A DNA stretch of 64,000 nt from a virus: the IMG/VR virus record IMGVR_UViG_3300045988_131126. One strand, written 5' to 3'. Both the position numbers and the translations under genes were made by a program. The first letter of the stretch is position 1, and each line of letters begins with the position of its first letter. This document shows, piece by piece, positions 8,812-36,971 of this stretch. Under the pieces are notes generated by a model, which saw only the letters and a program-made list of their open reading frames with translations, made no database searches and had not been told where the DNA came from.

Positions 8812-9105
8812 TCACCTCCTTTTATTCTGGACTATACTAATGCGAGTCATATGTATCATCTCGCGTAATGTCGGAATTTCAAAATCTTCATTAAAATAAG
8901 CTATTGCGGCTAATCTTGTACGTTCTATTCTTCTTGCTATAGCTCTAATATTACGGCGGTGATTGCATTTATATGCAATACTATTTACAATAGAACATTT
9001 CCATATATTATTGGATCTTGCTTTCAAAGTTTGTTTTTTCTTTTGGTACATGCGCATATTCTGATTAAATGATTTATGAGAACTCATTGATCTAACAGAC
9101 AGCAT
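8812..9105 (-). CDS. small, extremely basic protein (97 aa)
   Basis: AAAGGAGGGAAT SD. I counted 22 K+R versus 5 D+E in 97 residues. Confidence 0.8.
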   Translation of the reverse strand: MLSVRSMSSHKSFNQNMRMYQKKKQTLKARSNNIWKCSIVNSIAYKCNHRRNIRAIARRIERTRLAAIAYFNEDFEIPTLREMIHMTRISIVQNKRR

Positions 9106-9138
9106 TATTAATTCCCTCCTTTCATCAATAGAATAATA

Positions 9139-9170
9139 TACATCTATACGAAATATTTCGTATAGATGTA
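9139..9170 (-). terminator. hairpin terminator after ORF 9177..10349
   Basis: Perfect palindrome TACATCTATACGAAAT/ATTTCGTATAGATGTA. Confidence 0.65.
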
Positions 9171-9176
9171 TAAAAA

Positions 9177-10349
9177 TTATTTATTTGCTAAACTTATTGT
9201 CAATGCATAATATTTTAATATAGATTTAAAATAAGATATCTTAGTAGCTAATCTAGATTTTCTCTTTCTATAATTTGGAGAATTTTCATCTAGCCATTTC
9301 TCTATAATCTCTTTCTCTCTAATAATATTTGGGTTCTTAGTATTAGGCTTAGGAGTTATAGATTTGGCTATAAACTCAAGCCCAGTTACAGATTTATTCT
9401 CTGAATTAGCCATATACTCAGAAACCATAATTCTTAACAATTCTTTCACTTCCATTAAGTTCTGAGGATCATCTTGTATTCCTTCTATTATACTCTTTAT
9501 TTCATCTGTCTTTACATTAGCATCTTTGCATTTCTTACAAATGGACAAGTCTACTCCATGAGTAGTAATCTTATTCATAGCATTTTCTACATATCCTTCA
9601 GCCTTAATAGAATCATTCTCTGCTAATCTAAAATTATCCTGTTCGTAAGAATCACTATCATAAGATAAATAAGCATCACTATTCTGATATACATCTTTAA
9701 ATACTGCTACTATATTACCTAAGAATGATTTAATTCTTCCATGTAACTGCTGTACAATATCCGCTATATCTTCATCATCAGCGCCATCATTGCATAATTT
9801 CTTTTCATATGTATCTAACCATGTTCTACATATACTTTTTATAGCTCCGAATACAGTACCTTCTCTTTTTAAATCAAATTTTTGAGATAATACATTATTT
9901 ACTACATATTCAAGTATATGTCTTTTTGGCGGATAAATAAATTTTTGCGAATGAATAGACGGATAAAAGTTACCACTAAATGCTAAATATATAGAAGATA
10001 TTTCAGCACGTTTTCTATCGTTATGTTTTAAAAAATGTCTTATTACCATCATCTGTGTTGGTACTAATGGTACTTTCATACATCTTGGATTAAAGTTCAT
10101 ATCCCAATAATAAGTTTTACTTAATATACTTTCTACATCTTTAGGATTTATATTTAAAGTCAAAAAATAATTATTGGTGTCTTCTGCAGTAAATAATATC
10201 CTTGCTTGAGGAATTGTATCGTAAATATCTGCAGATCTTGTTTGAAAGAATTTAGACAAAAAATTAATATATTTGGTTTGATTTTTTGAAATAGCACTAG
10301 ATACTATTGGATATAGTTCTGGTACTATAATTGACGTAATTTTGGACAT
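9177..10349 (-). CDS. hypothetical protein (390 aa) immediately downstream of the tandem array
   Basis: ORF track. AAAGGTGGT SD lies inside the 3' arm of the 10354..10405 hairpin. No motif recognised. Followed by terminator 9139..9170. Confidence 0.8.
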   Translation of the reverse strand: MSKITSIIVPELYPIVSSAISKNQTKYINFLSKFFQTRSADIYDTIPQARILFTAEDTNNYFLTLNINPKDVESILSKTYYWDMNFNPRCMKVPLVPTQMMVIRHFLKHNDRKRAEISSIYLAFSGNFYPSIHSQKFIYPPKRHILEYVVNNVLSQKFDLKREGTVFGAIKSICRTWLDTYEKKLCNDGADDEDIADIVQQLHGRIKSFLGNIVAVFKDVYQNSDAYLSYDSDSYEQDNFRLAENDSIKAEGYVENAMNKITTHGVDLSICKKCKDANVKTDEIKSIIEGIQDDPQNLMEVKELLRIMVSEYMANSENKSVTGLEFIAKSITPKPNTKNPNIIREKEIIEKWLDENSPNYRKRKSRLATKISYFKSILKYYALTISLANK

Positions 10350-10353
10350 AATG

Positions 10354-10405
10354 TCTCTACCACCTTTAATGAAGTTTATTACTCCATTGTTTTCGGTGGT
10401 AGAGA
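10354..10405 (-). promoter_or_regulatory. 11-bp stem hairpin whose 3' arm (on the mRNA) contains the SD of ORF 9177..10349
   Basis: TCTCTACCACC (10354-10364) is the exact reverse complement of GGTGGTAGAGA (10395-10405), with a 30-nt loop. On the minus strand the arm GGTGGTAGAGA sits 4 nt before the ATG and includes AAAGGTGGT. Confidence 0.5.
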
Positions 10406-11543
10406 ATTTTTATTTTGAAATTATGATATTTTTATATTCTCGATTTTATTTAAACCTTGTGATATTTTTATAATTTCTGATTTTATTTTGCGACTATGAT
10501 ATTTAAATCAAAATGATTTTATTTAATTTTCCTGATGTTTTGCCCTTTTTAATTTTATTTAATCTTTATGATATATTTCCAAAAATAATTTTATTTAACT
10601 GCTACGATATTTTATAATTTCTGATTTTTATTTCTGCTTATTGATCTTTTACCAACTGTGAATCACTTAGCATATTATGATATTTATGTGTTTCTGGTTT
10701 ATTTAACTTGTTTGATGTTTTCAGTTGTCTGATTTTACTTTGATAATATGATATTTAATCTCTCTCGGTTTATTTTTAAACTATGATGTTTTTATCTATG
10801 TGATTTTATTTGAATAATATGATATATTTCGGAGATTAATTTATTCACGAAGCATGATATTTATATTAATTTGATTTATTGTTTCTACTTGATACTTTTG
10901 AGCCTTCGATTTATTCTTGTTTTATGATATTTTCAATATGATGATTTTACTTTCATCAAATGATATTTAAGTGTAATTGGTTTATTTGTATTACATGATA
11001 TTTTCGCTCAAATGAATTATTCTTTTGGAAATGATATTTTTCCGACTGTGAATCACTTTGTAAGTATGATATTTATGTGTTTCTGGTTTATTATTAAAGA
11101 ATGATGTTTATACTTTTTTAATTTTACTTCAGTAATATGATATATATACTTTGATGGTTTATTTGTATCATACGATATTTTCACCTATTTGATTTTATTT
11201 AAATCCTATGATATATTTTATTTGTTAATTTATTTTGTCGGTATGATATTTCGAGATTTCTAATTTTTTCACTATAATTGATGATTTTATAATTTATGAA
11301 TTGCTTACATTCTCTGATATTTTTATCAATATGGGTTACTCCATAAATATGATATTTAGGAATATATGGTTTATTATTGAATCGTGATGTTTAAGCTTTT
11401 TTGATTTTACTCTAACAATGTGATATTTATACGCTTTGGGTTTAATTATGTCCACTTGATATTTTGAGGTATTTAATTTGCTTAAGGACAATGATACTTT
11501 TTCGTTTTCGGCTTATTATTACCCTACGATATATCTATTTCAA

Positions 11544-11668
11544 TAATTTATTAGCGTTAGATGATATATTAGATACGCTAATTTATTGGTGTTATATGAT
11601 ACTTTTTTAAGCATAATTTTACTTTTACGATTTGATATTTAAAATCACTTGGTTTATTAAATTCTTTT
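11544..11668 (+). repeat. segmental duplication inside the array (copy 1; copy 2 lies 282 bp downstream)
   Basis: TAATTTATTAGCGTTAGATGATATATTAGATAC and TTTTAAGCATAATTTTACTTTT recur at about 11826-11951 with an offset of 282 bp (8 units). Confidence 0.8.
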
Positions 11669-11825
11669 GATATTTTTGTCGAAATAATTTACTCACTCTT
11701 TTAGATATTTATTAATATTTGGTTTATTATTATATATTGATATTTTCACAGCGATAATTTTACTTTCTTGATATGATATTTAAAATTTTATGGTTTATTT
11801 ATCCTATATGATATTTTTTACATAT

Positions 11826-11951
11826 TAATTTATTAGCGTTAGATGATATATTAGATACATTAATTTATTAGTGGAAAGTGATCCCTTTTTAAGCATAATT
11901 TTACTTTTTCGTTCTGATATTAAAAATTTCTTGGTTTTATTAAAACTATAT
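11826..11951 (+). repeat. segmental duplication inside the array (copy 2)
   Basis: See copy 1 at 11544..11668. Confidence 0.8.
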
Positions 11952-12152
11952 AATATTTTATTGTAAATAATTTATTTGGTTTCATTGATAGCTTTATTTA
12001 TTTGATTTACTTACTCTTTTAGATATTTATTAATATTTGATTTATTATCATATTTTGATATTTTTAACATGAATAATTTTACTTTTTCATTCTGATATTT
12101 AATATCTTCTGGTTTATTTATATCATATGATATTTCTTCAAGTGTAATTTAA

Positions 12153-12183
12153 ATCAGAGATAGGTAACTTACCTATCTCTGAT
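12153..12183 (-). terminator. hairpin terminator after ORF 12193..13923, at the upstream edge of the array
   Basis: ATCAGAGATAGGTA-ACT-TACCTATCTCTGAT, 9 nt after the stop codon. Confidence 0.65.
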
Positions 12184-12192
12184 ATATTTTAT

Positions 12193-13923
12193 TTATCCAT
12201 TATATTTTGGATATTCCGCTCTCTTATCTGGTTTAAATGTAAGTTCTGTTTCAAACGGTACTTCTGGTTTGATATAGTCTACATGACCGAGTCTAGAGAT
12301 TGGGAATACCATTGGCGGAAGTTCTCCATTTTCATAAATATACATTGCTTCAAATACATGCTCTACAAAAATCTTTACTGTCCATCTCTTCGCTCTTGCT
12401 GCAATCTGAGCCGGTGGAAGCATTCCTTTAATGTAGTAGCTATACGCAATGCTATTCTTGCTATAGTTTTTAGCTCTAAGAGCTTTTGCAGCCTGGTCTT
12501 TATATTCCAGGTTTTCGTTTTTACGTGTTTCATATTCCTTCCTTTCTTTATATAACTCTCCATACATAGAACCTCTATTAGATACTTTAACGAAAGACTC
12601 TCCAATCTTCCACATAAGAACTTTCAGTTTAATATTGTATGGAGGCTTAGATAAATAAGAAATTAAGGATTTCTTAGTAATAAATCCATCGTATTTATCT
12701 TCCTCTTTATTAATAGTAGCTGATTTAATCATATTATTGATCTTTCTTCTACCATTAAGTTTTGTGTACAGGTTGCTCATGATTACATGGGTGATAATAT
12801 TCTTATCGGATAAATTGATAATATAGTCAACAAAATGATCTATACTAAACGGTTCCTCCATATTAATTACACCGAGATATGTTTCGTATGTATCCATATG
12901 AAGAATTTCATCTTCAATAGATTCATATTCTACTTCTGTATCATCAATCTCTTCTCTCTGATTAAGCTGTTTATAGGAACGTAAATCTTCATCGACAATT
13001 TTTCTAGCTAATAATATAAGCTTAGATAATTCTTTATTAGGCATTTTACTGATTACATATTCCTTGATTGCATTTTCATTATATAATAGATTTTCTGCTA
13101 AAGATTTATCAATATCAATATCAAGTTCTTCGCAAGCTGCGGCGAATCCTTTGTTTCTAATATCTCTAATAGCCATTAAATCTTTAACAATATTGGTTGC
13201 TTTCTCTTTGCCTAACCATGGATTATTATTGTCATTTAATCCTGCATATGACCAGAAGTTACCTGCAGAATTAACTCCATCTACATTAAAATATGCATAT
13301 AAGCAAGAACTGATTACTGGCCCAATACCTTTGTTTCGTTTTAACCATCTAGTTACTGGATTAGTATCAGAATATGCTTCAAGCATAGCTTTGGTATTAT
13401 CTTCAATATTTCTAAGCTGTAATAAGTTCCATTTCATAATAGATACATTGTCAGGATTATCATTATTATCGTATCCCTGATTTAATGATCTTACCTGATT
13501 CTCTGTACCAATTCTGAAATCCTGAATCTGATAATAAAAATCTACTAATGATTTGACCTCGTTATAATTAAGTGTCACTACAGTTTTCTTAAGGTCTTTA
13601 GACATTTTTCCAAGACCTATAACATTCTGCTTAAGTACACCATCTTCCATTTCCGCATCAGGCTCAAACTCTTCGATATCTTCTTCTGTCGCTTTTTCAA
13701 ACTTTAACACTTTCTTTTCTTTCTTAGACTCTTCATTCTTTTCCTCTTTATCATTCTTTTTAGTAGTTCCGGAAGTCTTTGTATTCTTTTCGTTAATAAT
13801 TTCTTCAACAATTTTCAAAGATTCTAAATCTCCCATACCTATAAAATATGACCTAGCCTCCTCTAAAGTTTTCATTCTACTTCTTGTTGATAATTCTTTT
13901 CCTCTGAATAATAATTTTGTCAT
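12193..13923 (-). CDS. helix-hairpin-helix DNA-binding protein with IS110/Transposase_20-like segment
   Basis: 576 aa. AAGGAGAAAGAG SD. Acidic/K-rich N-terminal region. WLKRNKGIGPVISSCLYAYF-x13-FWSYAGL resembles the ipGIGp..A..l.aei...F.s...l.sYaGL.P signature of the IS110-family C-terminal domain. The Ser-Gly that normally follows was not seen. Confidence 0.55.
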   Translation of the reverse strand: MTKLLFRGKELSTRSRMKTLEEARSYFIGMGDLESLKIVEEIINEKNTKTSGTTKKNDKEEKNEESKKEKKVLKFEKATEEDIEEFEPDAEMEDGVLKQNVIGLGKMSKDLKKTVVTLNYNEVKSLVDFYYQIQDFRIGTENQVRSLNQGYDNNDNPDNVSIMKWNLLQLRNIEDNTKAMLEAYSDTNPVTRWLKRNKGIGPVISSCLYAYFNVDGVNSAGNFWSYAGLNDNNNPWLGKEKATNIVKDLMAIRDIRNKGFAAACEELDIDIDKSLAENLLYNENAIKEYVISKMPNKELSKLILLARKIVDEDLRSYKQLNQREEIDDTEVEYESIEDEILHMDTYETYLGVINMEEPFSIDHFVDYIINLSDKNIITHVIMSNLYTKLNGRRKINNMIKSATINKEEDKYDGFITKKSLISYLSKPPYNIKLKVLMWKIGESFVKVSNRGSMYGELYKERKEYETRKNENLEYKDQAAKALRAKNYSKNSIAYSYYIKGMLPPAQIAARAKRWTVKIFVEHVFEAMYIYENGELPPMVFPISRLGHVDYIKPEVPFETELTFKPDKRAEYPKYNG

Positions 13924-13945
13924 AACTCTTTCTCCTTAAGTATTT

Positions 13946-14155
13946 TTATTTTTTATCGTATTCGTGATATATTGGATTATACATCTTTGATTTGTCTAAT
14001 ACTTCTTGAATTCTGTCTTCAAGGTATCCATAGTCTGTTCCGTAAATTATGGCGACATTGTCTTCATCTCCCTCCTTTTCTGGATTGTCAATATTTATTT
14101 CCTTTTCTTCTAAGAAGTCCTCAAATATATCGATTATTATTTGGGCTGTATTCAT
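13946..14155 (-). CDS. small acidic protein (69 aa) ending in YNPIYHEY motif
   Basis: ATG at 14155 with AAAGGAGAAAAT SD. The longer track ORF starts at a GTG that contains that SD. Sequence is D/E-rich. Confidence 0.75.
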   Translation of the reverse strand: MNTAQIIIDIFEDFLEEKEINIDNPEKEGDEDNVAIIYGTDYGYLEDRIQEVLDKSKMYNPIYHEYDKK

Positions 14156-14272
14156 TTTATTTTCTCCTTTCTTCACATCTATAATATATATTTAAAAATG
14201 TATTTAACAATATCATAATCCGGTGTGGATCATGGTTTCTTTTTCATTTTTTGTCCTAATTCTTTTGTGAAG

Positions 14273-14304
14273 ATACCCTGTATAGGATTTCCTATACAGG
14301 GTAT
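14273..14304 (-). terminator. hairpin terminator after topoisomerase A gene
   Basis: ATACCCTGTATAGG-ATTT-CCTATACAGGGTAT. The U-tract is weak. Confidence 0.6.
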
Positions 14305-14310
14305 TCTTTC

Positions 14311-16713
14311 TTACATTTTCTTAGTATAACAATTTAAAACTTTAGCACCTCTTGTAGGAATTATCTTCTGACCTCCAGATATACTAGAAGATACCTTTAT
14401 ATCCTTTACAGGTATATCTAAAGTCTGAACAGTTGTAATTACATGTAATATCTCATTATCATTTGATCCTAATACTTTAAGTATAGAATCTGTTTTTCCA
14501 AGATTAATTACATTATTACCAGCTTTTCCTCTTTCAGATTTTGGTATAGCAGATAAATCTATTTTATTTACTTTACCACCAGTGGTTACAGTAATAATAC
14601 AATCTGCATCTGAATATATAGGAGAAATACCATCTATAGGATTCTTTGTATTCATAGCCATAACGCCTATAGCATTTCTCTTATAATGATTGATACTCTT
14701 GCATGGAATTCTTAATGCTTTCTTTCCACTATAGATTAATACGTCACATTTCTGCGGAATTACATCTATAGCAGTTACAATATCTCCATCATTTAATTTA
14801 GTATATATGATACCTGATGGAGGTGTATTGACAATATCATCTAGATCTATATTCTTAATATAATTTCCTTTTGTAACAACTGTAAGGAAATACTTATTTG
14901 TTTTTCTAGATGCTTGTTTAGCAATAGATTCAAATACAACACCTACTACATTGGAAGTTAATCCTTTTACAATACTACTTAAATCATATCCTATACTATT
15001 CTTTGCAGTATTCGGTATCTTATACACTGGTAACTTATATACCCTTCCATGTTCTGTAAAGAGTAATAAGTTTTCGGTATTAGATACTTTAAATGCAAAC
15101 TTAGGTACGCTATTCTTATTAGTATCGTTATCTTCTGGATTAATCTTCTTAATATAATTATCCTCAGTAATAATAACCTTGAATGTACCTTCTGGAATAT
15201 CATTAATCTGAGATAATTTAACTATTTTACATTTTCTAGGAGCATTATATTTAGCTTTAAATTCTAATAGCTCCTGTTCGATTTCTGCTAATAAAAGTCT
15301 TTCATCAGTAATCATATCAATATAATGATTTGATAAAGCTTTTAATTCTTTAGCTTCTTTCTTATACTTATCAAGATAAGCTACAGATAAAGTTTTAAGA
15401 TTACTATTAATAATAAACTTAGCCTGTAAATCTGTAATTTTAACTTTCTTAACAAGATATTCGATGATCTCGGTATCATCGGTAGTTTTTTGTTTCTTCA
15501 TCATATCAATAACGTTATCAATCTCTCCAGATTCTAATAACTTGATATAAGTTTCTTTTTCATGAAGCTTAGTACTAGCATTCTGATACTTGATATTATA
15601 GTATCTGAACTTGACTAATTTTCTGAAATTGATGAAATATTCTAAATAAGATTTATAACTAAATCTCTTTAATTCTACCCCCTCTAATACGTGGAAGTTT
15701 ATATGGAAAGATTTCTGCATATCTGTATTCTTATAGATTACATCTCTTACATAAGATGGATTAGATCCTTTCTTTAAAAGGATAACTATATTCATATTAT
15801 CTCCTTGAGATTTATCTATAATATCTGCTATTTGCGGAAGCTTTCCTTCTTTAGCAAGATTTTCAATTTTTACTTGAACGCATGTATCATATTTATTAGA
15901 AAAGTTTACCCCATCTGGAGTAGACTTTATAACTAATGCATGCTGATCTACTACATTAGAATTCAAGCCATACTCTTTCTTTAATTCTTCTGGAGTTAAT
16001 TCTTCTTCTTTTATAACTCCTCTTGCTACATATTTACCATTACCAGAATTACAGATCTTTTTCCAATTTGTATCTATAATTTCACATGGCATACATTGAT
16101 CTGGTACTAATACTACATCAGCTTTTGGATCGTGTATAAGCTTAATTGTGGCATCTATAACTTCGCCAATATTGTGCGGTGGAATTCCAGCTTTAATTCC
16201 AAAGCCGATTCCTAATGTACCATTAATAAGTAAGATCGGAACTTTAGCAGGTAAGTATTCCGGTTCATCTCCAGAATAATCAAATGTTGGTAACCAATCT
16301 ACTATTTCTTTACTTTGTTTTAATTCTGAAACCATAGCATCATATCCAAAATTAGATAATGATACTTCTGTGTATCTTGTAGCAGCTGCACCATCACCTT
16401 GCATAGATCCAAAGTTTGATTTGGATGCTGCTAAAGGCATTTTAGTATCCCACCAATCTACAAGAATCTTTATAGAATCTGCTATACTGCTATCTCCATG
16501 TGGATGATATTTCATAACTTCACCAACTACACGAGCAGTTTTAACTCTACTTGTTGGACACATATATGACATTACATATATATCTCTTCGTTGTACTAAT
16601 TTCAAACCATCTCTAACGTCTGGAAGCATTCTACGTCTATTAACCTCGGTTCCATATACTAAACCATGGTCTTTGTATAACTCCATGACATTTCTTTGTA
16701 TTATATTCTCCAT
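14311..16713 (-). CDS. type IIA DNA topoisomerase, subunit A (GyrA/ParC-like)
   Basis: 800 aa. RRMLPDVRDGLKLVQRRDIYVM matches the GyrA N-terminal signature. AATRYTEVSL contains the catalytic Tyr context (AMRYTE). Confidence 0.92.
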   Translation of the reverse strand: MENIIQRNVMELYKDHGLVYGTEVNRRRMLPDVRDGLKLVQRRDIYVMSYMCPTSRVKTARVVGEVMKYHPHGDSSIADSIKILVDWWDTKMPLAASKSNFGSMQGDGAAATRYTEVSLSNFGYDAMVSELKQSKEIVDWLPTFDYSGDEPEYLPAKVPILLINGTLGIGFGIKAGIPPHNIGEVIDATIKLIHDPKADVVLVPDQCMPCEIIDTNWKKICNSGNGKYVARGVIKEEELTPEELKKEYGLNSNVVDQHALVIKSTPDGVNFSNKYDTCVQVKIENLAKEGKLPQIADIIDKSQGDNMNIVILLKKGSNPSYVRDVIYKNTDMQKSFHINFHVLEGVELKRFSYKSYLEYFINFRKLVKFRYYNIKYQNASTKLHEKETYIKLLESGEIDNVIDMMKKQKTTDDTEIIEYLVKKVKITDLQAKFIINSNLKTLSVAYLDKYKKEAKELKALSNHYIDMITDERLLLAEIEQELLEFKAKYNAPRKCKIVKLSQINDIPEGTFKVIITEDNYIKKINPEDNDTNKNSVPKFAFKVSNTENLLLFTEHGRVYKLPVYKIPNTAKNSIGYDLSSIVKGLTSNVVGVVFESIAKQASRKTNKYFLTVVTKGNYIKNIDLDDIVNTPPSGIIYTKLNDGDIVTAIDVIPQKCDVLIYSGKKALRIPCKSINHYKRNAIGVMAMNTKNPIDGISPIYSDADCIITVTTGGKVNKIDLSAIPKSERGKAGNNVINLGKTDSILKVLGSNDNEILHVITTVQTLDIPVKDIKVSSSISGGQKIIPTRGAKVLNCYTKKM

Positions 16714-18153: not shown

Positions 18154-18453
18154 TTAATATTTGCATTCTCTTAATATAGGATTATAGTAATTGTATTTCT
18201 CTATAAGAGAATCACATAGCTGTTTAACTTCAGAATTAATAGGGTTTACTATCCATCTAGCACTTCCTTCATAATGTGCACACATTTGAAGGTCTGGAAA
18301 AGAATTGTTCATATCAATTACTTTTAGCATCCATATGAGACCATTATTAAGTGCGAAATCCATGCTATGATTATCGCCACCTCTTTGAATTTCGCAATGA
18401 TACCATTTATCCCCTATCATATAGTCTTCTACTATAAATTCAGATATTTTCAC
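18154..18453 (-). CDS. hypothetical protein, paralog of 18440..18739
   Basis: GTG at 18453 lies 9 nt after GGAGGT (rc of 18463-18468). The track ATG at 18474 has no SD. C-terminal YNYYNPILRE is shared with its neighbour. Confidence 0.65.
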   Translation of the reverse strand: MKISEFIVEDYMIGDKWYHCEIQRGGDNHSMDFALNNGLIWMLKVIDMNNSFPDLQMCAHYEGSARWIVNPINSEVKQLCDSLIEKYNYYNPILRECKY

Positions 18454-18739
18454 AATAAGGATACCTCCAATCATTTTCGTGAATAATAGGATTGAAATAA
18501 TTGTGCTCTCTTAATACATAATTATATGCTTCCATAAGATTTTTGTTTTTAGGATCTGGTTTTATATCCCATCCTCTATCATAATTTAATAAAAAAGATC
18601 CGTCAGATTCATCTATAATAGTTAACTTAGATATTCTTCCACCGTTAATACCATAATCACTTCCTGCAAATGGATAGAATTTCATTTCTATTCTAAGTTC
18701 TGTTCCATCTTCGCATATATAATATATCGTGTACCACAT
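18440..18739 (-). CDS. hypothetical protein, paralog of 18154..18453
   Basis: AAAGGAGGATAAATTT SD. C-terminal HNYFNPIIHE. Confidence 0.75.
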   Translation of the reverse strand: MWYTIYYICEDGTELRIEMKFYPFAGSDYGINGGRISKLTIIDESDGSFLLNYDRGWDIKPDPKNKNLMEAYNYVLREHNYFNPIIHENDWRYPYCENI

Positions 18740-18798: not shown

Positions 18799-21150
18799 TT
18801 AGTTAATAATATCAAATCTTGATAACTTAGCATGAGCTATAAGTTCATATTTATTAGACTCATAATATTTGATCTGCTCATACTCTTTCTTCCAGTCTTC
18901 TATAGTATACTGAAGTAAAGTTCTATTCTCAGGATCCAATGTAGATTCAAAGAATCTAGGTCCATCCATTTCACCAAGACCTTTATATCTCTCAATCTTA
19001 GATGGTTTACTAGCATCAAATGTACTCATTAATGAATATAATGATACCACTTCACCATTAAGTTTATATACTAATGAAGCATTCTTATTCATCATAGAAA
19101 TGATATTCTTAGAATCTTCAATAAGGCTATCGTTCATAAATACCGTATGAACTTTTCCGTTATAGGTTACCTCTAATACCGGAATACCCTTTTTTGTACT
19201 AGATTTTACAAATCTAAATAACTTTTTCAGATTCTTCTCGATTTCTTTTAACGGCTTATCTCTTAAAGTTATTACAGACTCTAATATCAACGGATCTATA
19301 CATAATCTATTTGCAATTCTATTGACTTCATACGTATAGTCATTATTATCATATAATAAGTGAGATAATTCATCTTTAGAAAGAACTTTTCCATTTATAT
19401 ATTCTACTTTATTAGTCTTACTAAATATACTCTGGACATATTTAATATAATCGATCTTGTACTTAAAATAATTATATTTCTTTCCAACCTGCATACCGTA
19501 TAATGGTGGTACAGCTTTATATACATATCCAGCTTTTATTAAATCTGGCATATACATCATAAAGAATCTTATAAATAATGAACTAATATGATCACCATCT
19601 GCATCAGCATCTGTTGCTAATACTATCTTTATAAATTTAACTTTTGAAACATCGAAGTTCTTTCCGTATCCAGCACCTATTAATGTAATAATACCAGATA
19701 TCTCTTCATTACTTAAGAACTTTGCTGGAGCTGTATTAAACGCATTCGGAATTTTACCTCTAATCGGAAAATATCCTTGATGTTTAGTATCTCTACTGTT
19801 TCTCATAACTCCAGCTGCAGAATCACCCTCGCATATCCATAATTCCAAATCATGTTTTAATGAAGGTTTTACATATTTAGCTGGTAAACCTTGTCCGAAT
19901 GCTGACGCCTTGAAGTTCTTAGAGATTTTGATTTTCTCCGTATCTGCTTTCATTCTAGCATCTGCAATATCTTTAAAGTACTTACAAAGCCTATTAAGAT
20001 CATTTGGATTAGCTTTGATCCATTCAGATAATCCATTATAAATTGTATCATTAACGAATTTATCCATTTCTCTTACTTCCAAGATCTCTTTGGCTTGACC
20101 ATTGAATACTGGTTCAAGATGAAAACCAGATATTACTGCTATTAATCCTGTTTTAATATCTGCATTAGTTACAGTTGTTTTGTTTCTAGGATTACTAGAC
20201 AAATATACTTTATTCATATAATTGGTAAAGAACTTACATATTCCTTTCATAAATCCATTTATATGATCTCCTTGACTTGTCGGACAAGTATTACAAAAAG
20301 ATATAATTCTTTCTCCAGATGTAGTATTATCCATATCATAAGTAAATGCTAAATCCACTTTCATAATACCAGTATCTGCTGTAATGAATACTGGAGTTAT
20401 CAGAGGATTGGTACAATTCTGATAAAAGTATGTCATAATACCGTCTTCATTTACAAGTGTTTCTGACACCTTTTCTCCATTAGCTCTAATACCATTAAAT
20501 ATAATCTTAGCTCCAATTTTATTTAATGGTAAAATAAGCTTAACCAAATTTAATACATTATCTACTGTAACATATCCATCACCAGATTTCTGAAACTCTA
20601 ATGCTTCTTCTGCAGGTTTAAATACTACAATAGTACCCTGTTTATTTGTTTTATTTTGGATTTTCTTTTCTCCTTGTTTCCAAGGCTCTCCATTATTAAA
20701 TTCTACTCTTCTTCCCTCACCCAATACATAAGAATCTACATAGAAGAATTCTGATAACGCATTTGTTACTTTTGCTCCACATCCATGTAGACCAGATGAA
20801 TACTCTCCTTTTTTCTTATTATAGTTTGAAGATGTATTCATATCCGTAAAAGCTCTAATGATAGATCCAAACGGAATACCTCTACCATTATCTTCTACAA
20901 TAATCGTTTTACTATTTTCATCATATGAAATAATTACAGTATCACACGGAGAACTGTCTTTCATTATTTCATCTAATGCGTTCTGGATAATTTCTCTGAT
21001 CATATTTAAATGACCTTTAAATCCTCTAGAACCAATCCACATACCAATATTCTGTCTGACCTGAGCTACCCAATTATCAATTGTAATAAGCTCATCACCA
21101 TAATTCTTGATATTGTCAATCATTTCTTGGGATAATTCTTTTTTAGCCAT
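18799..21150 (-). CDS. type IIA DNA topoisomerase, ATPase/Toprim subunit B (GyrB/ParE-like)
   Basis: 783 aa. GHKL ATPase motifs (IIQNALDE, EDNGRGIP, GLHGCGAKV), Toprim ELWICEGDSAAG and ATDADADGDHI, and a C-terminal RYKGLGEM motif. Confidence 0.93.
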   Translation of the reverse strand: MAKKELSQEMIDNIKNYGDELITIDNWVAQVRQNIGMWIGSRGFKGHLNMIREIIQNALDEIMKDSSPCDTVIISYDENSKTIIVEDNGRGIPFGSIIRAFTDMNTSSNYNKKKGEYSSGLHGCGAKVTNALSEFFYVDSYVLGEGRRVEFNNGEPWKQGEKKIQNKTNKQGTIVVFKPAEEALEFQKSGDGYVTVDNVLNLVKLILPLNKIGAKIIFNGIRANGEKVSETLVNEDGIMTYFYQNCTNPLITPVFITADTGIMKVDLAFTYDMDNTTSGERIISFCNTCPTSQGDHINGFMKGICKFFTNYMNKVYLSSNPRNKTTVTNADIKTGLIAVISGFHLEPVFNGQAKEILEVREMDKFVNDTIYNGLSEWIKANPNDLNRLCKYFKDIADARMKADTEKIKISKNFKASAFGQGLPAKYVKPSLKHDLELWICEGDSAAGVMRNSRDTKHQGYFPIRGKIPNAFNTAPAKFLSNEEISGIITLIGAGYGKNFDVSKVKFIKIVLATDADADGDHISSLFIRFFMMYMPDLIKAGYVYKAVPPLYGMQVGKKYNYFKYKIDYIKYVQSIFSKTNKVEYINGKVLSKDELSHLLYDNNDYTYEVNRIANRLCIDPLILESVITLRDKPLKEIEKNLKKLFRFVKSSTKKGIPVLEVTYNGKVHTVFMNDSLIEDSKNIISMMNKNASLVYKLNGEVVSLYSLMSTFDASKPSKIERYKGLGEMDGPRFFESTLDPENRTLLQYTIEDWKKEYEQIKYYESNKYELIAHAKLSRFDIIN

Positions 21151-21186
21151 TATGATTATTCCCCTTTACGTATATTTAAAAAATAA

Positions 21187-21220
21187 AAAAGTGTAGAAGA
21201 GAATTCTCTTCTACACTTTT
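21187..21220 (-). terminator. intrinsic terminator at the low-coordinate edge of the G+C-rich island
   Basis: AAAAGTGTAGAAGAGAA/TTCTCTTCTACACTTTT. On the minus strand it is followed by TTTTTTATTTTTT. Confidence 0.8.
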
Positions 21221-21606
21221 GTTATTCTCTATTTTCAGCATAAATATATGAAATTAATTTTAATTGCGTTCTGAGATTGACCGAGTGCTCCGACTGAATG
21301 ATCTCCCTTAACGATTCAACCTTGCAGGGGCTTCTATACGCGCGCTTAAGCCCGTTGTAGCAAAGTAACCGCATTTCCATATTCATTCCCAATTGCCGAA
21401 GTCTTATCCTTCAAACAACGATCGATCTCAGAACTCACATATGTTAAAATAGACAGATGTTTGGCGTATCCTAATATCAACTTAGCTCGCAGCGGACTCT
21501 TGCATATTAAACGCATCATCATGTCCGACTACGACCACTCTCGTGACTACAAGGATAATGCAGAGATAATATCTCATCTTTTCTTGTCTACTTTAATAAT
21601 ATGTTT
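21221..21606. ncRNA. candidate structured non-coding RNA (G+C-rich ORF-free island), family and strand unknown
   Basis: No ORF of 60 aa or more, and stops in all frames. I counted 31/60 G+C at 21301-21360 and 30/60 at 21481-21540, in a genome that is otherwise visibly AT-rich. Long-range pairing GTTCTGAGATTG (21268-21279) with CGATCTCAGAAC (21422-21433). Nested helices 21328-21333/21348-21353, 21353-21358/21415-21420 and 21493-21497/21523-21527. Bracketed by hairpins 21187..21220 and 21607..21636. Confidence 0.5.
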
Positions 21607-21636
21607 AGAGAGATTGTAAATTAATACAATCTCTCT
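21607..21636. terminator. hairpin after ORF 21643..22578, at the high-coordinate edge of the G+C-rich island
   Basis: AGAGAGATTGTA-AATTAA-TACAATCTCTCT. T-rich only on the plus side (TTTAAATTT). Confidence 0.55.
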
Positions 21637-21642
21637 TTAAAT

Positions 21643-22578
21643 TTATGCTTCAAGTGTTCCAGTTGCATTTACTCTTTCTACTGCTCCATTTGCAGGAACT
21701 GTTGTCTGCTGATCTGGAGTTGCTGGCTGAGCTGGTGCAGGAGCTGGCTGAGCCATCTGCTGATTCTGTGCTCCATATACCGGATAGTTCTGCTGAGGCT
21801 GTGTAGGCGCAGAATAAGTCTGCGGCATACCCATTGGCGGTACAGGCGCATTAACAATAGGAGCTGGTGCTACTCCATTAGCATAAAATGGATTTGCGTT
21901 CATATCTGGTGCTCCATATGTCATTCCACCCTGATTATTCATCATTGGTGATACAGGCTGCTGATATCCATATCCAGGATATGCTGGCTGCTGTGGCACA
22001 CCACCCATATTATACATTGGATATCCCATAGTACCACCATTTGTGATTTCTCTAAAGCTGTTGAATAATCCATTATTCTGCATATATACATCCTGTGTTG
22101 AACTTGCACTTGGAGCGAATCTGGAATAATTCTCTACAGCGATATCATAGAGTTTCGGAATCTTATCAACGAATGGTAAGATTGTGAATAACTGTCTTAC
22201 AACTGTTTCTGGAATATTTACATACATAAGTTTGCAGCATTCCATAACATTTTTAAAATCTTTTACAATCTGTTCTACTTTCTCATGAGTAAGATCATCT
22301 GGATTTAATCTTGCTCCACAGATTGTACACACCACGTCACCGGTGCCATCTTTAGTTTCTGCAATAGAGAACTTGTTTGTCCCAGGATATTTATGAGTAC
22401 AAAGACCTCTATTAATTTCCTGGCTAGTTACTTTCAGTGAGAACATAGCATCAGATTTAGTTAATTCTGCAGCTTCATCTTTTGTAAGCGGCTGAGTAAA
22501 TTTGATGTTCTGTGGCTGTACTCCATTGAAAGTCTGGCCTGCTACTGGGTTAACAAAAGTGTTGTAAAAATTAGACAT
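21643..22578 (-). CDS. hypothetical protein with Cys motif and P/Q/G/Y/M-rich low-complexity C-terminus
   Basis: ATG at 22578 (MSNFYNT...) with AAGGAGGACAAACTT SD. CTHK...CTICG pair. The last ~140 aa are Pro/Gln/Gly/Tyr/Met/Ala-rich. Confidence 0.8.
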   Translation of the reverse strand: MSNFYNTFVNPVAGQTFNGVQPQNIKFTQPLTKDEAAELTKSDAMFSLKVTSQEINRGLCTHKYPGTNKFSIAETKDGTGDVVCTICGARLNPDDLTHEKVEQIVKDFKNVMECCKLMYVNIPETVVRQLFTILPFVDKIPKLYDIAVENYSRFAPSASSTQDVYMQNNGLFNSFREITNGGTMGYPMYNMGGVPQQPAYPGYGYQQPVSPMMNNQGGMTYGAPDMNANPFYANGVAPAPIVNAPVPPMGMPQTYSAPTQPQQNYPVYGAQNQQMAQPAPAPAQPATPDQQTTVPANGAVERVNATGTLEA

Positions 22579-36029: not shown

Positions 36030-36971
36030 ATGGGTGCTGAAACTAGAAATTATGGCAACACTTATTTTTACTCAAAAGGTAAATATGAAGAGGCCGTTTA
36101 TAAGTTTATTATGTCCGCAGAACGTGTTGATAAAAACGACAAATCATTTGAAGATATTAGATATGAGGTAAAAAGGCGTCAGATTTATAAATCAATCGTA
36201 AACGTACTCGACAATCAAAATATATTATTATTATACAATGAGAATGGTCCATTACCAAGATCTTTCAAAATATTCACTTGTAAAGATCCTAAATCTGGTG
36301 ATGGCAAAAAGAAAGTATTTATTGATGTAACTGGTATTATCTCACAAGTAGATGGTGCATATACTATCAAGTCTAGATCTGTAGATACTTTTATAGCTTA
36401 TCTTATCGCTGCTATGATAGAGGCGATATATTATACAGATCCAAATAAATTAGTTAATAAGAATGATATCATTGTATCTGGTGGAAAATGTTTTGCTAAA
36501 TTAGTATTCTATATTATTGATTATTTAAGAATTGGTAACGTAGAAAAAGTTAGAGAAAAAACTTTATATTTAGCATCTAGATATTATGAAGAATGCTTAT
36601 TAGGAAAATCAGGAGAAACAGTAGAAAATAGAGCAAAGAATTTGTCTGGATTAACTAAAAGAGAAATCGATGTATTAAATCTTTACATCGATCCCGATTC
36701 TTTTAAGAATATTGATACATTTATATGCACATTATCTAAAGCCTTAAAAGATGATAGATTAAATACAACTATCTTCTTCGAAAAATGGAGATGGTTATTC
36801 GGAGCATCTACGGCATTTGCTACAGAATTATTTACCGTATTTGCTAAAATGATTACTGATGTTTATGTAGCTACTTACATTAATAATCAGAAGACTATTG
36901 AAAATGTAACTAAACCGACATATATCGAATTTAGTAAAGCTTTATTGCAGATAGGGAGTGAGTTATTTTGA
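36030..36971 (+). CDS. hypothetical protein (313 aa)
   Basis: ORF track. TAAGGAGGGTTAAGACCAT SD. First gene of a plus-strand island. Confidence 0.8.
   Translation: MGAETRNYGNTYFYSKGKYEEAVYKFIMSAERVDKNDKSFEDIRYEVKRRQIYKSIVNVLDNQNILLLYNENGPLPRSFKIFTCKDPKSGDGKKKVFIDVTGIISQVDGAYTIKSRSVDTFIAYLIAAMIEAIYYTDPNKLVNKNDIIVSGGKCFAKLVFYIIDYLRIGNVEKVREKTLYLASRYYEECLLGKSGETVENRAKNLSGLTKREIDVLNLYIDPDSFKNIDTFICTLSKALKDDRLNTTIFFEKWRWLFGASTAFATELFTVFAKMITDVYVATYINNQKTIENVTKPTYIEFSKALLQIGSELF

What the first reader, a model, noticed from the sequence alone, without database searches (positions are those of the whole stretch)
12193..13923. Long HhH protein with an IS110/Transposase_20-like signature next to non-coding DNA
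- **What is seen:** Residues around WLKRNKGIGPVISSCLYAYFNVDGVNSAGNFWSYAGLND match, by eye, the core of the IS110-family C-terminal domain (ipGIGp..aa.l.aei.d...F.s...l.sYaGL.P).
- **What is missing:** The Ser-Gly normally found a few residues after YAGL.P is not evident, and I could not recognise an N-terminal DEDD/RuvC-like acidic set. The nearest look-alike, VIGLGKMSKDL, has Gly where the first Asp would be.
- **Size:** At 576 aa the protein is much longer than typical IS110 transposases. It has an acidic/K-rich N-terminal region and a large insertion after the HhH segment.
- **Why it matters:** IS110-family recombinases are known to be guided by a structured non-coding bridge RNA encoded beside the recombinase gene. 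A diverged, possibly catalytically dead relative sitting directly upstream of a 1.75 kb non-coding array is therefore notable. It could be a domesticated DNA- or RNA-binding factor for the array.
Basis: partly seen in the sequence, partly recalled or inferred. Interest (0 to 1): 0.65.

Follow-up and report, generated by a model that had tools for sequence, protein, structure and literature searches.

The report
Phage TIGR-TasA RNA-guided system
The 576-aa protein is not a transposase but a nuclease-free TIGR-associated (TasA-type) protein of an uncultured jumbo phage, and the 1.75 kb of "non-coding" DNA next to it is its array of 49 short dual-spacer guide RNAs, a kind of RNA-guided DNA-binding system first described in 2025.

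Summary
ORF 12193-13923 (-) is real, and its GIGP helix-hairpin-helix segment is homologous to the IS110 C-terminal domain. There is no DEDD domain and no Ser-Gly.

The protein belongs to the TIGR-Tas family, not to IS110:
- It passes NCBI's curated TIGR-Tas model at 133.7 bits (cut-off 100).
- The closest solved proteins are TaTasR (9MTY) and SpTasH; IS621 is far weaker.
- The AlphaFold model (pLDDT 86) best matches TasH-tigRNA structures.

The neighbouring DNA, 12153-10405 (-), is a dual-repeat TIGR array. It holds 49 loop repeats (AAATATCA) alternating with 50 edge repeats (A[A/G]TAAA(A)YYA), separated by 9-nt spacers, with a 35-36 nt period.

In all 49 units, box C of one edge repeat can pair with box D of the next: 33 U-A, 14 C-G and 2 U.G (Fisher p = 3.5e-10). 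This is an RNA-level constraint.

No nuclease domain was found, so the most likely function is RNA-guided DNA binding or repression. Natural targets were not found.

Unusual features:
- the array length;
- a 190-aa helical insertion with no known fold;
- spacers diverging about 5-fold faster than repeats between strains.

Verdict: a new member of a known kind, of modest interest.

The parts
12193..13923 (-). tasA-type gene (576 aa): a TIGR-associated Nop-domain protein with no nuclease domain
   Evidence: ORF. NCBIfam NF052498.1 TIGR_Tas_endo scores 133.7 bits against a cut-off of 100. PDB matches: 9MTY TaTasR at E 1.2e-6 for the single sequence and 1.4e-19 for the profile, SpTasH at 5.3e-10. 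Foldseek top hits are TasH-tigRNA complexes.
13774..13923 (-). aa 1-50: small folded N-terminal domain (two short strands plus two helices), function unknown
   Evidence: AF2 model, pLDDT 86-97 over this block. No Pfam hit.
13630..13767 (-). aa 53-98: disordered acidic/Lys-rich linker
   Evidence: pLDDT below 50. Low-complexity sequence.
13363..13599 (-). aa 109-187: antiparallel coiled-coil hairpin, the likely dimerisation domain
   Evidence: Helices 120-148 and 159-187. This region aligns to the coiled coil of SpTasH and TaTasR. Q134, R137 and Q143 are invariant.
   Evidence: Alignments to TaTasR, SpTasH and IS621. G199, G201, G228 and N230 are invariant.
12646..13212 (-). aa 238-426: roughly 190-aa all-helical insertion between NPWLGKEK and PPYN; no known fold
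   Evidence: The whole-protein model and the insertion-only model (pLDDT 90.8) are both confident. There is no PDB structural match (best E 1.3, TM <= 0.23). Insertion length varies from 60 to 256 aa across the family.
12319..12645 (-). aa 427-535: C-terminal helices of the Nop domain
   Evidence: Collinear matches to TaTasR residues 232-268 and 269-318.
12256..12318 (-). aa 536-556: C-terminal loop with Y540, H547, D549 and Y550 (YPISRLGHVDYIKPEVP), the candidate Tyr/His dyad for pre-tigRNA processing
   Evidence: H547 is invariant; Y540, D549 and Y550 are at least 90% conserved. GHVDYIKP is shared with TaTasR. A Y/H dyad on a C-terminal loop is reported for dual-repeat Tas proteins, as Y289/H296 in SpTasH, with the same 7-residue spacing as Y540/H547. 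The assignment here is an inference.
12153..12183 (-). Stable hairpin between the tas stop codon and the array (terminator, attenuator or 3'-end structure)
   Evidence: dG -20.1 kcal/mol, z -6.05. Flagged by the terminator scan. There is a compensatory T-A to C-G change in the 99%-identical locus L006. An equivalent hairpin of different sequence is present in L001 and L004.
10405..12153 (-). Dual-repeat TIGR array with 49 tigRNA units of 35-36 nt. Each unit reads: edge repeat A(A/G)UAAA(A)YYA, 9-nt spacer A, loop repeat AAAUAUCA, 9-nt spacer B, next edge repeat. The first edge repeat is 5'-degenerate and the last is 3'-degenerate.
   Evidence: Unit parsing and column conservation. TRF finds periods of 35, 36, 71 and 141. 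Cross-edge box C/box D pairing holds in 49 of 49 units. This is the only such array in the window.
10354..10405 (-). Two-tier hairpin at the distal end of the array; it encloses the Shine-Dalgarno sequence of the next gene
   Evidence: dG -25.7 kcal/mol, z -7.55. The inner hairpin is conserved in L001 and L004.

Best explanation
This is a TIGR-Tas system of the nuclease-free (TasA) type, carried by an uncultured jumbo phage.

**Shown**
- The protein is a Tas-family Nop-domain protein. It has a coiled-coil hairpin, an HhH RNA-binding core and a conserved C-terminal Tyr/His loop.
- The DNA downstream of it is a dual-repeat TIGR array of 49 units.

**Inferred, by analogy with characterised TasA, TasR and TasH**
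- The array is transcribed in the same sense as tas.
- The protein dimer binds the precursor RNA and cuts it within the edge repeats, probably using Y540/H547. This yields 35-36 nt tigRNAs.
- The ends of each tigRNA are held together by a Y-R pair (box C of the 5' half-edge with box D of the 3' half-edge) plus an adjacent A-U pair.
- Each tigRNA presents two 9-nt spacers that pair with opposite strands of an 18-bp DNA site. The target top strand would read spacer A followed by the reverse complement of spacer B.
- With no nuclease domain, the complex would bind, unwind and bend the target. It would block transcription or replication rather than cut.

What the 49 guides target (host, competing elements or the phage itself) is unknown.
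For: **Protein membership**
- NCBIfam TIGR_Tas_endo scores 133.7 bits against a cut-off of 100.
- TaTasR (PDB 9MTY; identified as TasR in PMC12045711) matches in three collinear stretches. E is 1.2e-6 for the single sequence and 1.4e-19 for the family profile.
- SpTasH matches at 5.3e-10 and IS621 only at 4.3e-5.
- The AF2 model has pLDDT 86. Its best PDB matches are TasH-tigRNA complexes, with TM-score normalised to the target of 0.59-0.69.
- H547, Y540 and Y550 are conserved in the C-terminal loop.

**Array**
- Two alternating repeats of 8 and 9-11 nt are separated by 9-nt spacers, with a period of 35-36 nt. This fits the published definition of 8-12-nt repeats, 9-nt spacers and 36-nt tigRNAs.
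- The array begins with a 5'-degenerate edge repeat and ends with a 3'-degenerate one, here and in L001 and L004.
- The first base of box C in edge i pairs with the second base of box D in edge i+1 in 49 of 49 units.
- All 14 C's are followed by G in the next edge. Fisher p is 3.5e-10 at offset +1 and not in that direction at offsets -1, 0 or +2. In 20,000 shuffles of edge order, none reached the observed value.
- A second pair is A-U in 43 of 49 units, with one G-C double change.

**Orientation**
- Wobble pairs are U.G on the tas-sense strand (2 here, plus 1 in L006); none would read as G.U on the other strand.
- Arrays of distant relatives end in a hairpin followed by a long T-run on the tas-sense strand.

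**Selection**
- Between the window and L006, repeats differ at about 1% and spacers at 6.0%.

**No nuclease**
- There is no Pfam hit.
- The insertion has no fold match.
- No conserved acidic or His cluster lies outside the processing loop.

**Function of nuclease-free Tas**
- TasA proteins have been shown to act as RNA-guided repressors (bioRxiv 10.64898/2026.09.09.750476).
Against: - There is no expression or processing data for this locus.
- Box D here is AA/AG (WA in the loop repeat) rather than the UG of TasR arrays, and box C is YYA/UCA rather than CCA. The motifs are diverged.
- The window array is not followed by a T-run terminator on the tas-sense strand. The distal hairpin has its T-run on the opposite strand.
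- Strand assignment rests on three wobble pairs and on the relatives.
- No targets were found. Self-matches in the 64-kb window are no more frequent than in scrambled controls. Two 18-mer scans of viral contigs gave chance-level results.
- Spacers drift at about the rate of third codon positions, so some may not be under selection.
- The 190-aa insertion and the N-terminal domain have unknown roles and could add an activity that sequence does not reveal.
Confidence: 0.92

Rival explanations
1. A domesticated or degenerate IS110-family transposase whose neighbouring non-coding DNA encodes bridge-RNA-like molecules.
For: The HhH segment is homologous to PF02371 in 28 of 54 homologs. The family profile hits IS621 and ISCro4 at about 1e-4. 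PHROGs labels the family 'transposase' (phrog_4285, 2e-34).
Against: - There is no DEDD domain, no catalytic Ser-Gly and no hit to the NCBIfam IS110 model. Homologs score 21-32 bits against a cut-off of 140.
- Tas proteins are far closer.
- The gene sits at a fixed syntenic position in related phages, next to the topoisomerase II genes, rather than at variable sites.
- The RNA element is a 49-unit array of 35-36 nt units, not a single two-loop bridge RNA of roughly 180 nt.
Confidence: 0.02
2. The repeat region works as DNA (iterons of a replication origin, a partition site or a packaging site). The HhH protein would bind the repeats directly, with no RNA guide.
For: The region is AT-rich (21-24% GC) and lies among replication genes: topoisomerase II, helicases and a clamp-loader-like ATPase.
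Against: - The compensatory C-G / U-A / U.G relation between successive edge repeats about 36 nt apart has no explanation at the level of double-stranded DNA. It matches the pairing seen in processed tigRNAs.
- The 9-nt inter-repeat segments vary freely while the repeats are conserved.
- The protein carries the RNA-processing loop and passes the Tas model.
Confidence: 0.03
3. The RNP targets RNA rather than DNA, working like a box C/D snoRNP. It would either guide a modification enzyme recruited by the 190-aa insertion or N-terminal domain, or block mRNAs.
For: - The Nop domain and the dual-guide layout are shared with box C/D snoRNPs.
- The insertion and the N-terminal domain are of unknown function.
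- No DNA targets were found.
Against: - Every characterised TIGR-Tas system binds DNA, and TasR showed no activity on RNA substrates.
- Rfam gave no snoRNA or k-turn match.
- No fibrillarin or L7Ae homolog was noticed among the genes examined, although only part of the window was searched.
Confidence: 0.04

Closest known systems
TIGR-TasA systems with dual-repeat arrays (e.g. Flavonifractor plautii FpTasA; Faure et al., Science 2025, PMC12045711)
   Same: - A Nop-domain protein with no nuclease domain, a coiled-coil dimerisation hairpin and a C-terminal Tyr/His loop.
- The array lies downstream on the same strand.
- Two alternating short repeats with 9-nt spacers, and units of about 36 nt.
- Truncated edge repeats at both ends of the array.
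- Carried by a phage.
   Different: - 49 units, against 'most often 5 to 15'.
- Box D is AR/WA and box C is YYA/UCA, instead of UG/CCA.
- The loop repeat is 8 nt.
- A roughly 190-aa helical insertion interrupts the Nop domain, although dual-repeat Tas proteins are described as having a compact core.
- There is an extra folded N-terminal mini-domain plus a disordered linker.
TaTasR (PDB 9MTY) and SpTasH (PDB 9W03/9W04), the structurally solved dual-repeat Tas nucleases
   Same: - Best sequence and structure matches.
- The GHVDYIKP motif is shared with TaTasR.
- The same pairing logic applies between box C and box D of successive edge repeats.
   Different: There is no RuvC or HNH domain, so cleavage is not expected. 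The protein is much larger because of the insertion and the N-terminal extension.
IS110-family RNA-guided recombinases (IS621, ISCro4) with bridge RNA
   Same: A homologous HhH/Nop-like RNA-binding domain (PF02371). Guide RNA with two segments that pair to opposite DNA strands.
   Different: No DEDD/RuvC-like domain, no catalytic Ser and no mobile-element ends. The RNA is a multi-unit array rather than a single bridge RNA. The sequence relationship is distant (E about 1e-4 to 1e-5 with a profile).
Archaeal/eukaryotic box C/D snoRNPs (Nop5/Nop56/58 with fibrillarin and L7Ae)
   Same: The Nop fold, a coiled-coil dimer, and a dual-guide RNA flanked by box C/D-type anchors.
   Different: The structural match is weak (1nt2_B, E 5). 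There are no k-turn boxes, no fibrillarin or L7Ae partner was seen, and the expected target is DNA.
CRISPR arrays with nuclease-free effectors (type IV, type V-M, dCas-like repression)
   Same: An array of repeats and variable spacers next to the effector gene. The likely outcome is binding without cutting.
   Different: Two alternating repeats of 8-11 nt and split 9+9-nt spacers. There are no cas genes and no adaptation module. The protein fold is unrelated.

Membership tests
TIGR-Tas (Tas protein) | Protein matches the curated Tas family model above its cut-off | tested here: met
   NCBIfam NF052498.1 TIGR_Tas_endo: 133.7 bits against a cut-off of 100, E 8.7e-39.
TIGR-Tas (Tas protein) | Nop-domain fold with a coiled-coil dimerisation hairpin, closest to solved Tas structures | tested here: met
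   AF2 model with pLDDT 86. Foldseek top hits are TasH-tigRNA complexes 9w04, 21kl and 9w03 (TM-score normalised to the target 0.59-0.69), then IS110 recombinases. The family profile hits 9MTY at 1.4e-19. Dimer formation itself was not modelled.
TIGR-Tas (dual-repeat type) | Adjacent array of two distinct alternating 8-12-nt repeats, with roughly 9-nt spacers and roughly 36-nt units | tested here: met
   49 loop repeats (8 nt), 50 edge repeats (9-11 nt), 9-nt spacers and a period of 35-36 nt. Definition taken.
TIGR-Tas (dual-repeat type) | Box C / box D anchors flank each spacer, with a base pair between box C and box D of consecutive edge repeats | tested here: met
   49 of 49 units can form the pair (33 U-A, 14 C-G, 2 U.G), Fisher p 3.5e-10. 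The motif letters differ from the canonical CCA/UG.
TIGR-Tas (dual-repeat type) | Conserved Tyr/His processing dyad on an extended C-terminal loop | tested here: inconclusive
   H547 is invariant, and Y540 and Y550 are at least 90% conserved in a C-terminal loop. GHVDYIKP is shared with TaTasR. The Y540-H547 spacing equals that of SpTasH Y289-H296, but no direct alignment to SpTasH in this region was obtained.
TIGR-Tas | Array is transcribed and processed into roughly 36-nt tigRNAs bound by the protein | not testable with these tools
   Needs small-RNA sequencing or an RNP pull-down.
TIGR-Tas | RNP binds DNA through tandem spacers that pair to opposite strands | not testable with these tools
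   No natural target was found. Needs EMSA or a reporter assay.
TasA subtype (no nuclease) | No HNH or RuvC domain | tested here: met
   No Pfam hit at E<=10. The N-terminus is a 50-aa mini-domain plus a disordered linker. The insertion has no structural match to any nuclease.
IS110-family transposase | N-terminal DEDD (RuvC-like) catalytic domain (PF01548) | tested here: not met
   No Pfam hit. No such fold is present in the model.
IS110-family transposase | Match to the curated IS110 model, and a catalytic Ser after the YAGL motif | tested here: not met
   The window protein does not hit NF033542. Homologs score 21-32 bits against a cut-off of 140. The sequence after YAGLND is NNNPWLGKEK, with no Ser-Gly.
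Box C/D snoRNP | k-turn box C (RUGAUGA) and box D (CUGA) RNAs, with fibrillarin and L7Ae partners | tested here: not met
   No Rfam match in 9000-14500 at E<=1. Nop5 is only a weak structural match. Partner proteins were not searched for exhaustively.
CRISPR-Cas | A single repeat of 25-36 nt with spacers of similar size, plus cas genes | tested here: not met
   The array has two alternating repeats of 8-11 nt and 9-nt spacers. Neighbouring genes are topoisomerase II and phage proteins of unknown function.

The most novel reading that the evidence does not exclude
In a lineage of jumbo phages, a TasA enlarged by a helical insertion of unknown fold is kept beside the topoisomerase II genes. With an unusually long array of 49 guides, it serves as a multiplexed RNA-guided DNA-binding device for host take-over, or for excluding competing phages.

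On this reading, the array grows by tandem duplication of 2- to 4-unit blocks, followed by point-mutational drift of the spacers, with no CRISPR-like acquisition from targets. That would address the open question of how TIGR arrays expand.
Probability: 0.25. Interest if true: 0.6.

Novelty: new member of a known kind. Interest (0 to 1): 0.35.

Why it matters
TIGR-Tas systems were described only in 2025. Their natural targets, the role of nuclease-free TasA in phages, and how their arrays grow are all stated open questions.

This locus offers three things:
- A clean natural example with many units. The pairing between consecutive edge repeats is visible as covariation within a single array.
- Near-identical strains that show how the array changes: block insertions and deletions of 4 and 12 units, repeats differing at about 1%, and spacers at about 6%.
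- A dual-repeat TasA with a large insertion domain of unknown fold. This runs against the reported compactness of dual-repeat Tas cores.

It does not reveal a new kind of system.

Tried and rejected
1. **Pfam on the protein itself** gave nothing. Homology appeared only through homologs, profiles, NCBIfam and PHROGs.
2. **Phage database searches.** Megablast and tblastn against 50,697 deposited phage genomes gave no match. The phage has no cultured relative in that set.
3. **Rfam** over 9000-14500 gave no family.
4. **First self-target search** paired spacers across the edge repeat, which was the wrong frame. It was redone with spacers flanking the loop repeat and with the geometry deduced from the published 8-nt 3' overhang. 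There was no excess over scrambled controls.
5. **Exact 18-mer scans of viral contigs.** The unit 20 target gave 0 hits. The unit 26 target gave 6 hits, which reduce to 2 independent sequences in unrelated contigs of 40-59% GC. This is chance level, so further scans were not spent.
6. **Strand assignment from terminators** in the window was uninformative. Hairpins after - strand genes in this phage generally carry their T-runs on the + strand. Sigma-70 promoter scans are irrelevant for a phage with its own RNA polymerase.
7. **First assignment of edge and loop repeats.** I initially took AAATATCA as the edge repeat. The array ends and the covariation between successive copies of the other repeat reversed that.
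8. **Direct alignment of the C-terminal loop to SpTasH** was not obtained.
9. **The 390-aa downstream gene as an accessory factor.** It is syntenic only in close relatives and absent beside tas in distant ones, so no link is claimed.
Full report
**1. The observation**

The ORF at 12193-13923 on the - strand is real and encodes 576 aa.

The protein on its own has no Pfam hit, even at E<=10. The resemblance to the IS110 C-terminal domain is nevertheless genuine homology:
- PHROGs places aa 106-234 in phrog_4285, labelled 'transposase', at 2e-34.
- 28 of 54 aligned homologs hit PF02371 Transposase_20.
- A family profile reaches the IS621 and ISCro4 recombinases at 4e-5 and 9e-5.

There is no DEDD domain and no Ser-Gly after YAGLND. 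The N-terminal stretch is acidic and Lys-rich, and there is a large insertion after the HhH.

The 1,843-bp intergenic stretch at 10350-12192 is the only tandem-repeat region in the window.

**2. What the protein is**

The best match among solved structures is 9MTY chain A, at E 1.2e-6 in three collinear stretches: the HhH, aa 432-470, and aa 510-565 including GHVDYIKP. 9MTY is the cryo-EM structure of TaTasR from the paper that defined TIGR-Tas systems (PMC12045711).

Further evidence points the same way:
- A profile of 54 homologs improves the TaTasR match to 1.4e-19. SpTasH follows at 5.3e-10, and the IS110 recombinases are four or more orders of magnitude weaker.
- NCBI's curated model NF052498.1 (TIGR-Tas system RNA-guided endonuclease) is passed at 133.7 bits against a cut-off of 100. 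The IS110 model is not hit.
- An AlphaFold2 model built on the alignment is confident, with mean pLDDT 86 and pTM 0.74.

The model shows these parts in order:

| Residues | Feature |
|---|---|
| 1-50 | small folded domain |
| 53-98 | disordered linker |
| 120-148 and 159-187 | antiparallel coiled-coil hairpin |
| 189-236 | HhH region |
| 238-426 | all-helical insertion |
| 427-535 | C-terminal helices |
| 536-556 | terminal loop |

The model's best PDB matches are TasH-tigRNA complexes, then ISCro4 and IS621, with Nop5 far behind.

There is no nuclease domain. Nothing in Pfam matches. An insertion-only model (pLDDT 90.8) has no structural neighbour in the PDB, with best E 1.3. The insertion contains almost no invariant residues. 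The protein is therefore of the TasA (nuclease-free) type.

H547 is invariant, and Y540, D549 and Y550 are nearly invariant, within the C-terminal loop. Dual-repeat Tas proteins are reported to process their own precursor RNA with a Tyr/His dyad on such a loop: Y289/H296 in SpTasH, the same 7-residue spacing as Y540/H547. That assignment is an inference here, because I could not align the loop directly to SpTasH.

The family is large. It has 1,986 clusters at 50% identity with E<=1e-3, and 791 with E<=1e-30.

**3. What the 'non-coding array' is**

Read in the sense of the tas gene, the region from 12153 down to 10405 is built from two alternating repeats:
- 49 copies of an 8-nt repeat, AAATATCA;
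- 48 internal copies plus two degenerate terminal copies of a 9-11-nt repeat, A(A/G)TAAA(A)YYA.

The repeats are separated by 9-nt variable segments, giving a period of 35-36 nt. This matches the published definition of a dual-repeat TIGR array: two distinct alternating 8-12-nt repeats, 9-nt spacers and 36-nt tigRNAs.

The longer repeat is the edge repeat and AAATATCA is the loop repeat, for two reasons.

First, the arrays in the window and in the related loci L001 and L004 begin and end with degenerate copies of the longer repeat. The first copy has lost its 5' part and the last has lost its 3' part, as described for TIGR arrays.

Second, there is a striking relation between successive copies. 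The first base of the terminal YYA ('box C') of edge i can pair with the second base of the initial AR ('box D') of edge i+1 in all 49 units:

| Pair | Units |
|---|---|
| U-A | 33 |
| C-G | 14 |
| U.G | 2 |

- Every one of the 14 edges ending in CCN is followed by an edge starting with AG (Fisher p = 3.5e-10).
- Within the same edge the association is reversed. At offsets -1 and +2 it is absent.
- None of 20,000 shuffles of edge order reached the observed value.
- The 14 C-G junctions carry different spacers and several repeat variants, so they are not simple copies of one block.
- A neighbouring second pair is A-U in 43 of 49 units and G-C once, as a double change.

This is the pairing seen in the TasR structure, where box C and box D of different edge repeats come together at the ends of a processed tigRNA. 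In TasR arrays it is accompanied by a second covarying pair. It is hard to explain for an element that acts as double-stranded DNA.

*Strand.* The wobble pairs are U.G on the tas-sense strand: two here, plus one created by a C-to-T change in L006. None would be G.U on the other strand. In more distant relatives (L008, L009, L010) short arrays with related repeats end in a hairpin followed by a long T-run on the tas-sense strand. I therefore take the array to be transcribed in the same direction as tas. The window's own flanking hairpins do not settle this.

**4. Genomic setting and relatives**

The window looks like part of a jumbo phage. It has 28% GC, split multisubunit RNA polymerase beta-like genes, DnaB-like and Dda-like helicases, both topoisomerase II subunits and a large virion protein. 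It has no relative among 50,697 deposited phage genomes.

Loci encoding Tas proteins at 99%, 51-52% and 40% identity share one layout: gyrA-like gene, small ORF, tas, hairpin, array, hairpin with SD, then a 390-aa gene. Their arrays hold roughly 49, 37, 33 and 6 units.

More distant homologs on 155-198-kb contigs place tas between or beside the topoisomerase II subunit genes, with short arrays on either side. This fixed position argues against mobility.

The insertion between NPWLGKEK and PPYN is 60-73 aa in the short forms of the family, 129-201 aa in an intermediate group and up to 256 aa in some members. The window protein has 188 aa at this position. A recent survey describes dual-repeat Tas proteins as having a compact Nop core, so this clade is somewhat atypical.

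**5. Array change between strains**

L007 carries the same array as the window, with two substitutions.

L006 encodes a 99%-identical Tas, and its flanking genes are 97.4-99.3% identical at the nucleotide level (third codon positions 93.4-98.1%). Its array differs from the window's in several ways:
- It lacks one block of 141 nt (4 units) and one of about 430 nt (12 units).
- Its first six units are identical to the window's.
- Its spacers in the last seven or so units are unrelated to the window's.

In the parts that are clearly orthologous, divergence is as follows:

| Element | Substitutions | Rate |
|---|---|---|
| Spacers | 30 of 500 | 6.0% |
| Loop repeats | 2 of 228 | 0.9% |
| Edge repeats | 3 of 248 | 1.2% |

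Within the window array there are paralogous units. Units 4 and 13 differ at 1 of 18 spacer positions, units 9 and 17 at 2, and units 8 and 16 at 5. TRF also finds periods of 71 and 141 nt.

The repeats are therefore under purifying selection, while the spacers change at about the rate of silent sites. Part of the array's growth is by tandem duplication of multi-unit blocks. This bears on the stated open question of how TIGR arrays expand, but it is a two-strain comparison, not a proof.

**6. Mechanism**

*Shown:* family membership of the protein, the architecture of the array, and the RNA-level pairing constraint.

*Inferred from characterised TasA, TasR and TasH:*
- The array is transcribed with or just after tas. 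There is no room for a separate promoter between the hairpin and the first edge repeat.
- A protein dimer binds the precursor and cuts it within the edge repeats, releasing 35-36 nt tigRNAs.
- Each tigRNA guides the dimer to an 18-bp DNA site.
- The published 8-nt 3' overhang of TasR cuts implies that each spacer pairs with the 3' half of its strand. A target therefore reads spacer A followed by the reverse complement of spacer B.
- Without a nuclease, the outcome is binding, unwinding and bending. Transcriptional repression has been demonstrated for another TasA.

*Targets:* none were found. Matches inside the 64-kb window are no more frequent than for scrambled arrangements. Two database scans gave chance-level results. 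The literature reports the same difficulty.

**7. Comparison and verdict**

The locus works like, and by every testable criterion is, a dual-repeat TIGR-TasA system. It is not an IS110 element, a box C/D snoRNP or a CRISPR array; the defining features of each were tested and not met.

It departs from described examples in several ways:
- diverged box letters (AR/YYA instead of UG/CCA);
- an 8-nt loop repeat;
- a very long array;
- a large insertion of unknown fold, plus an N-terminal mini-domain;
- its setting beside topoisomerase II genes in a jumbo-phage lineage. No paper in the searchable library mentions both TIGR-Tas and jumbo phages.

These make it a new member, and arguably a minor variant, of a known kind.

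Noticed in passing
window 10354-10405 (-): A very stable two-tier hairpin (dG -25.7 kcal/mol, z -7.6) lies between the end of the array and the 390-aa gene. Its 3' arm contains that gene's Shine-Dalgarno sequence (AAAGGUGG), 4 nt before the ATG. The inner hairpin CAATGRAGTAAT...ACTTCATTG is conserved in L001 and L004. It may couple array read-through or processing to translation of the next gene.
   Followed up: partly
window 12153-12183 (-); L006: The hairpin right after the tas stop codon (z -6.05) shows a compensatory T-A to C-G change in the 99%-identical locus L006. L001 and L004 have a hairpin of different sequence at the same position.
   Followed up: partly
window 13946-14176, 18154-18474, 18440-18739 (all -): Three small ORFs (76, 106 and 99 aa) share a C-terminal motif, Y(Y/F)NPI(Y/L/I)(H/R)E, and some acidic positions. 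The copy in L007 carries a DUF7678 hit. One of them sits immediately upstream of tas. This looks like a small paralogous family of unknown function.
   Followed up: partly
window 47448-48992 and 49696-50940 (-): Two genes match phage multisubunit RNA polymerase beta-subunit families (phrog_2987 at 9e-56, phrog_2962 at 1e-64). This indicates a jumbo phage with its own RNA polymerase, so sigma-70 promoter scans say little here.
   Followed up: no
window 36968-41224 (+): A 1,418-aa ORF in a + strand block (36-41 kb, opposite to most genes) has no PHROG match at 1e-5.
   Followed up: no
window 9177-10349 (-): The 390-aa protein downstream of the array (phrog_2921, unknown function) keeps this position in close relatives (L001, L004, L006, L007). 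It is absent next to tas in distant relatives.
   Followed up: partly
L008, L009, L010 (contigs of 55-198 kb): In distant relatives the tas gene lies between or next to the gyrB-like and gyrA-like topoisomerase II genes. The gyrA-like gene of L010 contains an intein (PF14890).
   Followed up: no
L001 vs L002/L003 (identical Tas protein): Contigs encoding the same 569-aa Tas protein differ in the first few units of the array, on the tas-proximal side, and then share the following units. In the window/L006 pair it is the distal end that differs.
   Followed up: partly
window 21001-22000: A local GC rise to 39.5% against a background of about 28%, just downstream of the gyrB-like gene. No tRNA was found anywhere in the window.
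   Followed up: no
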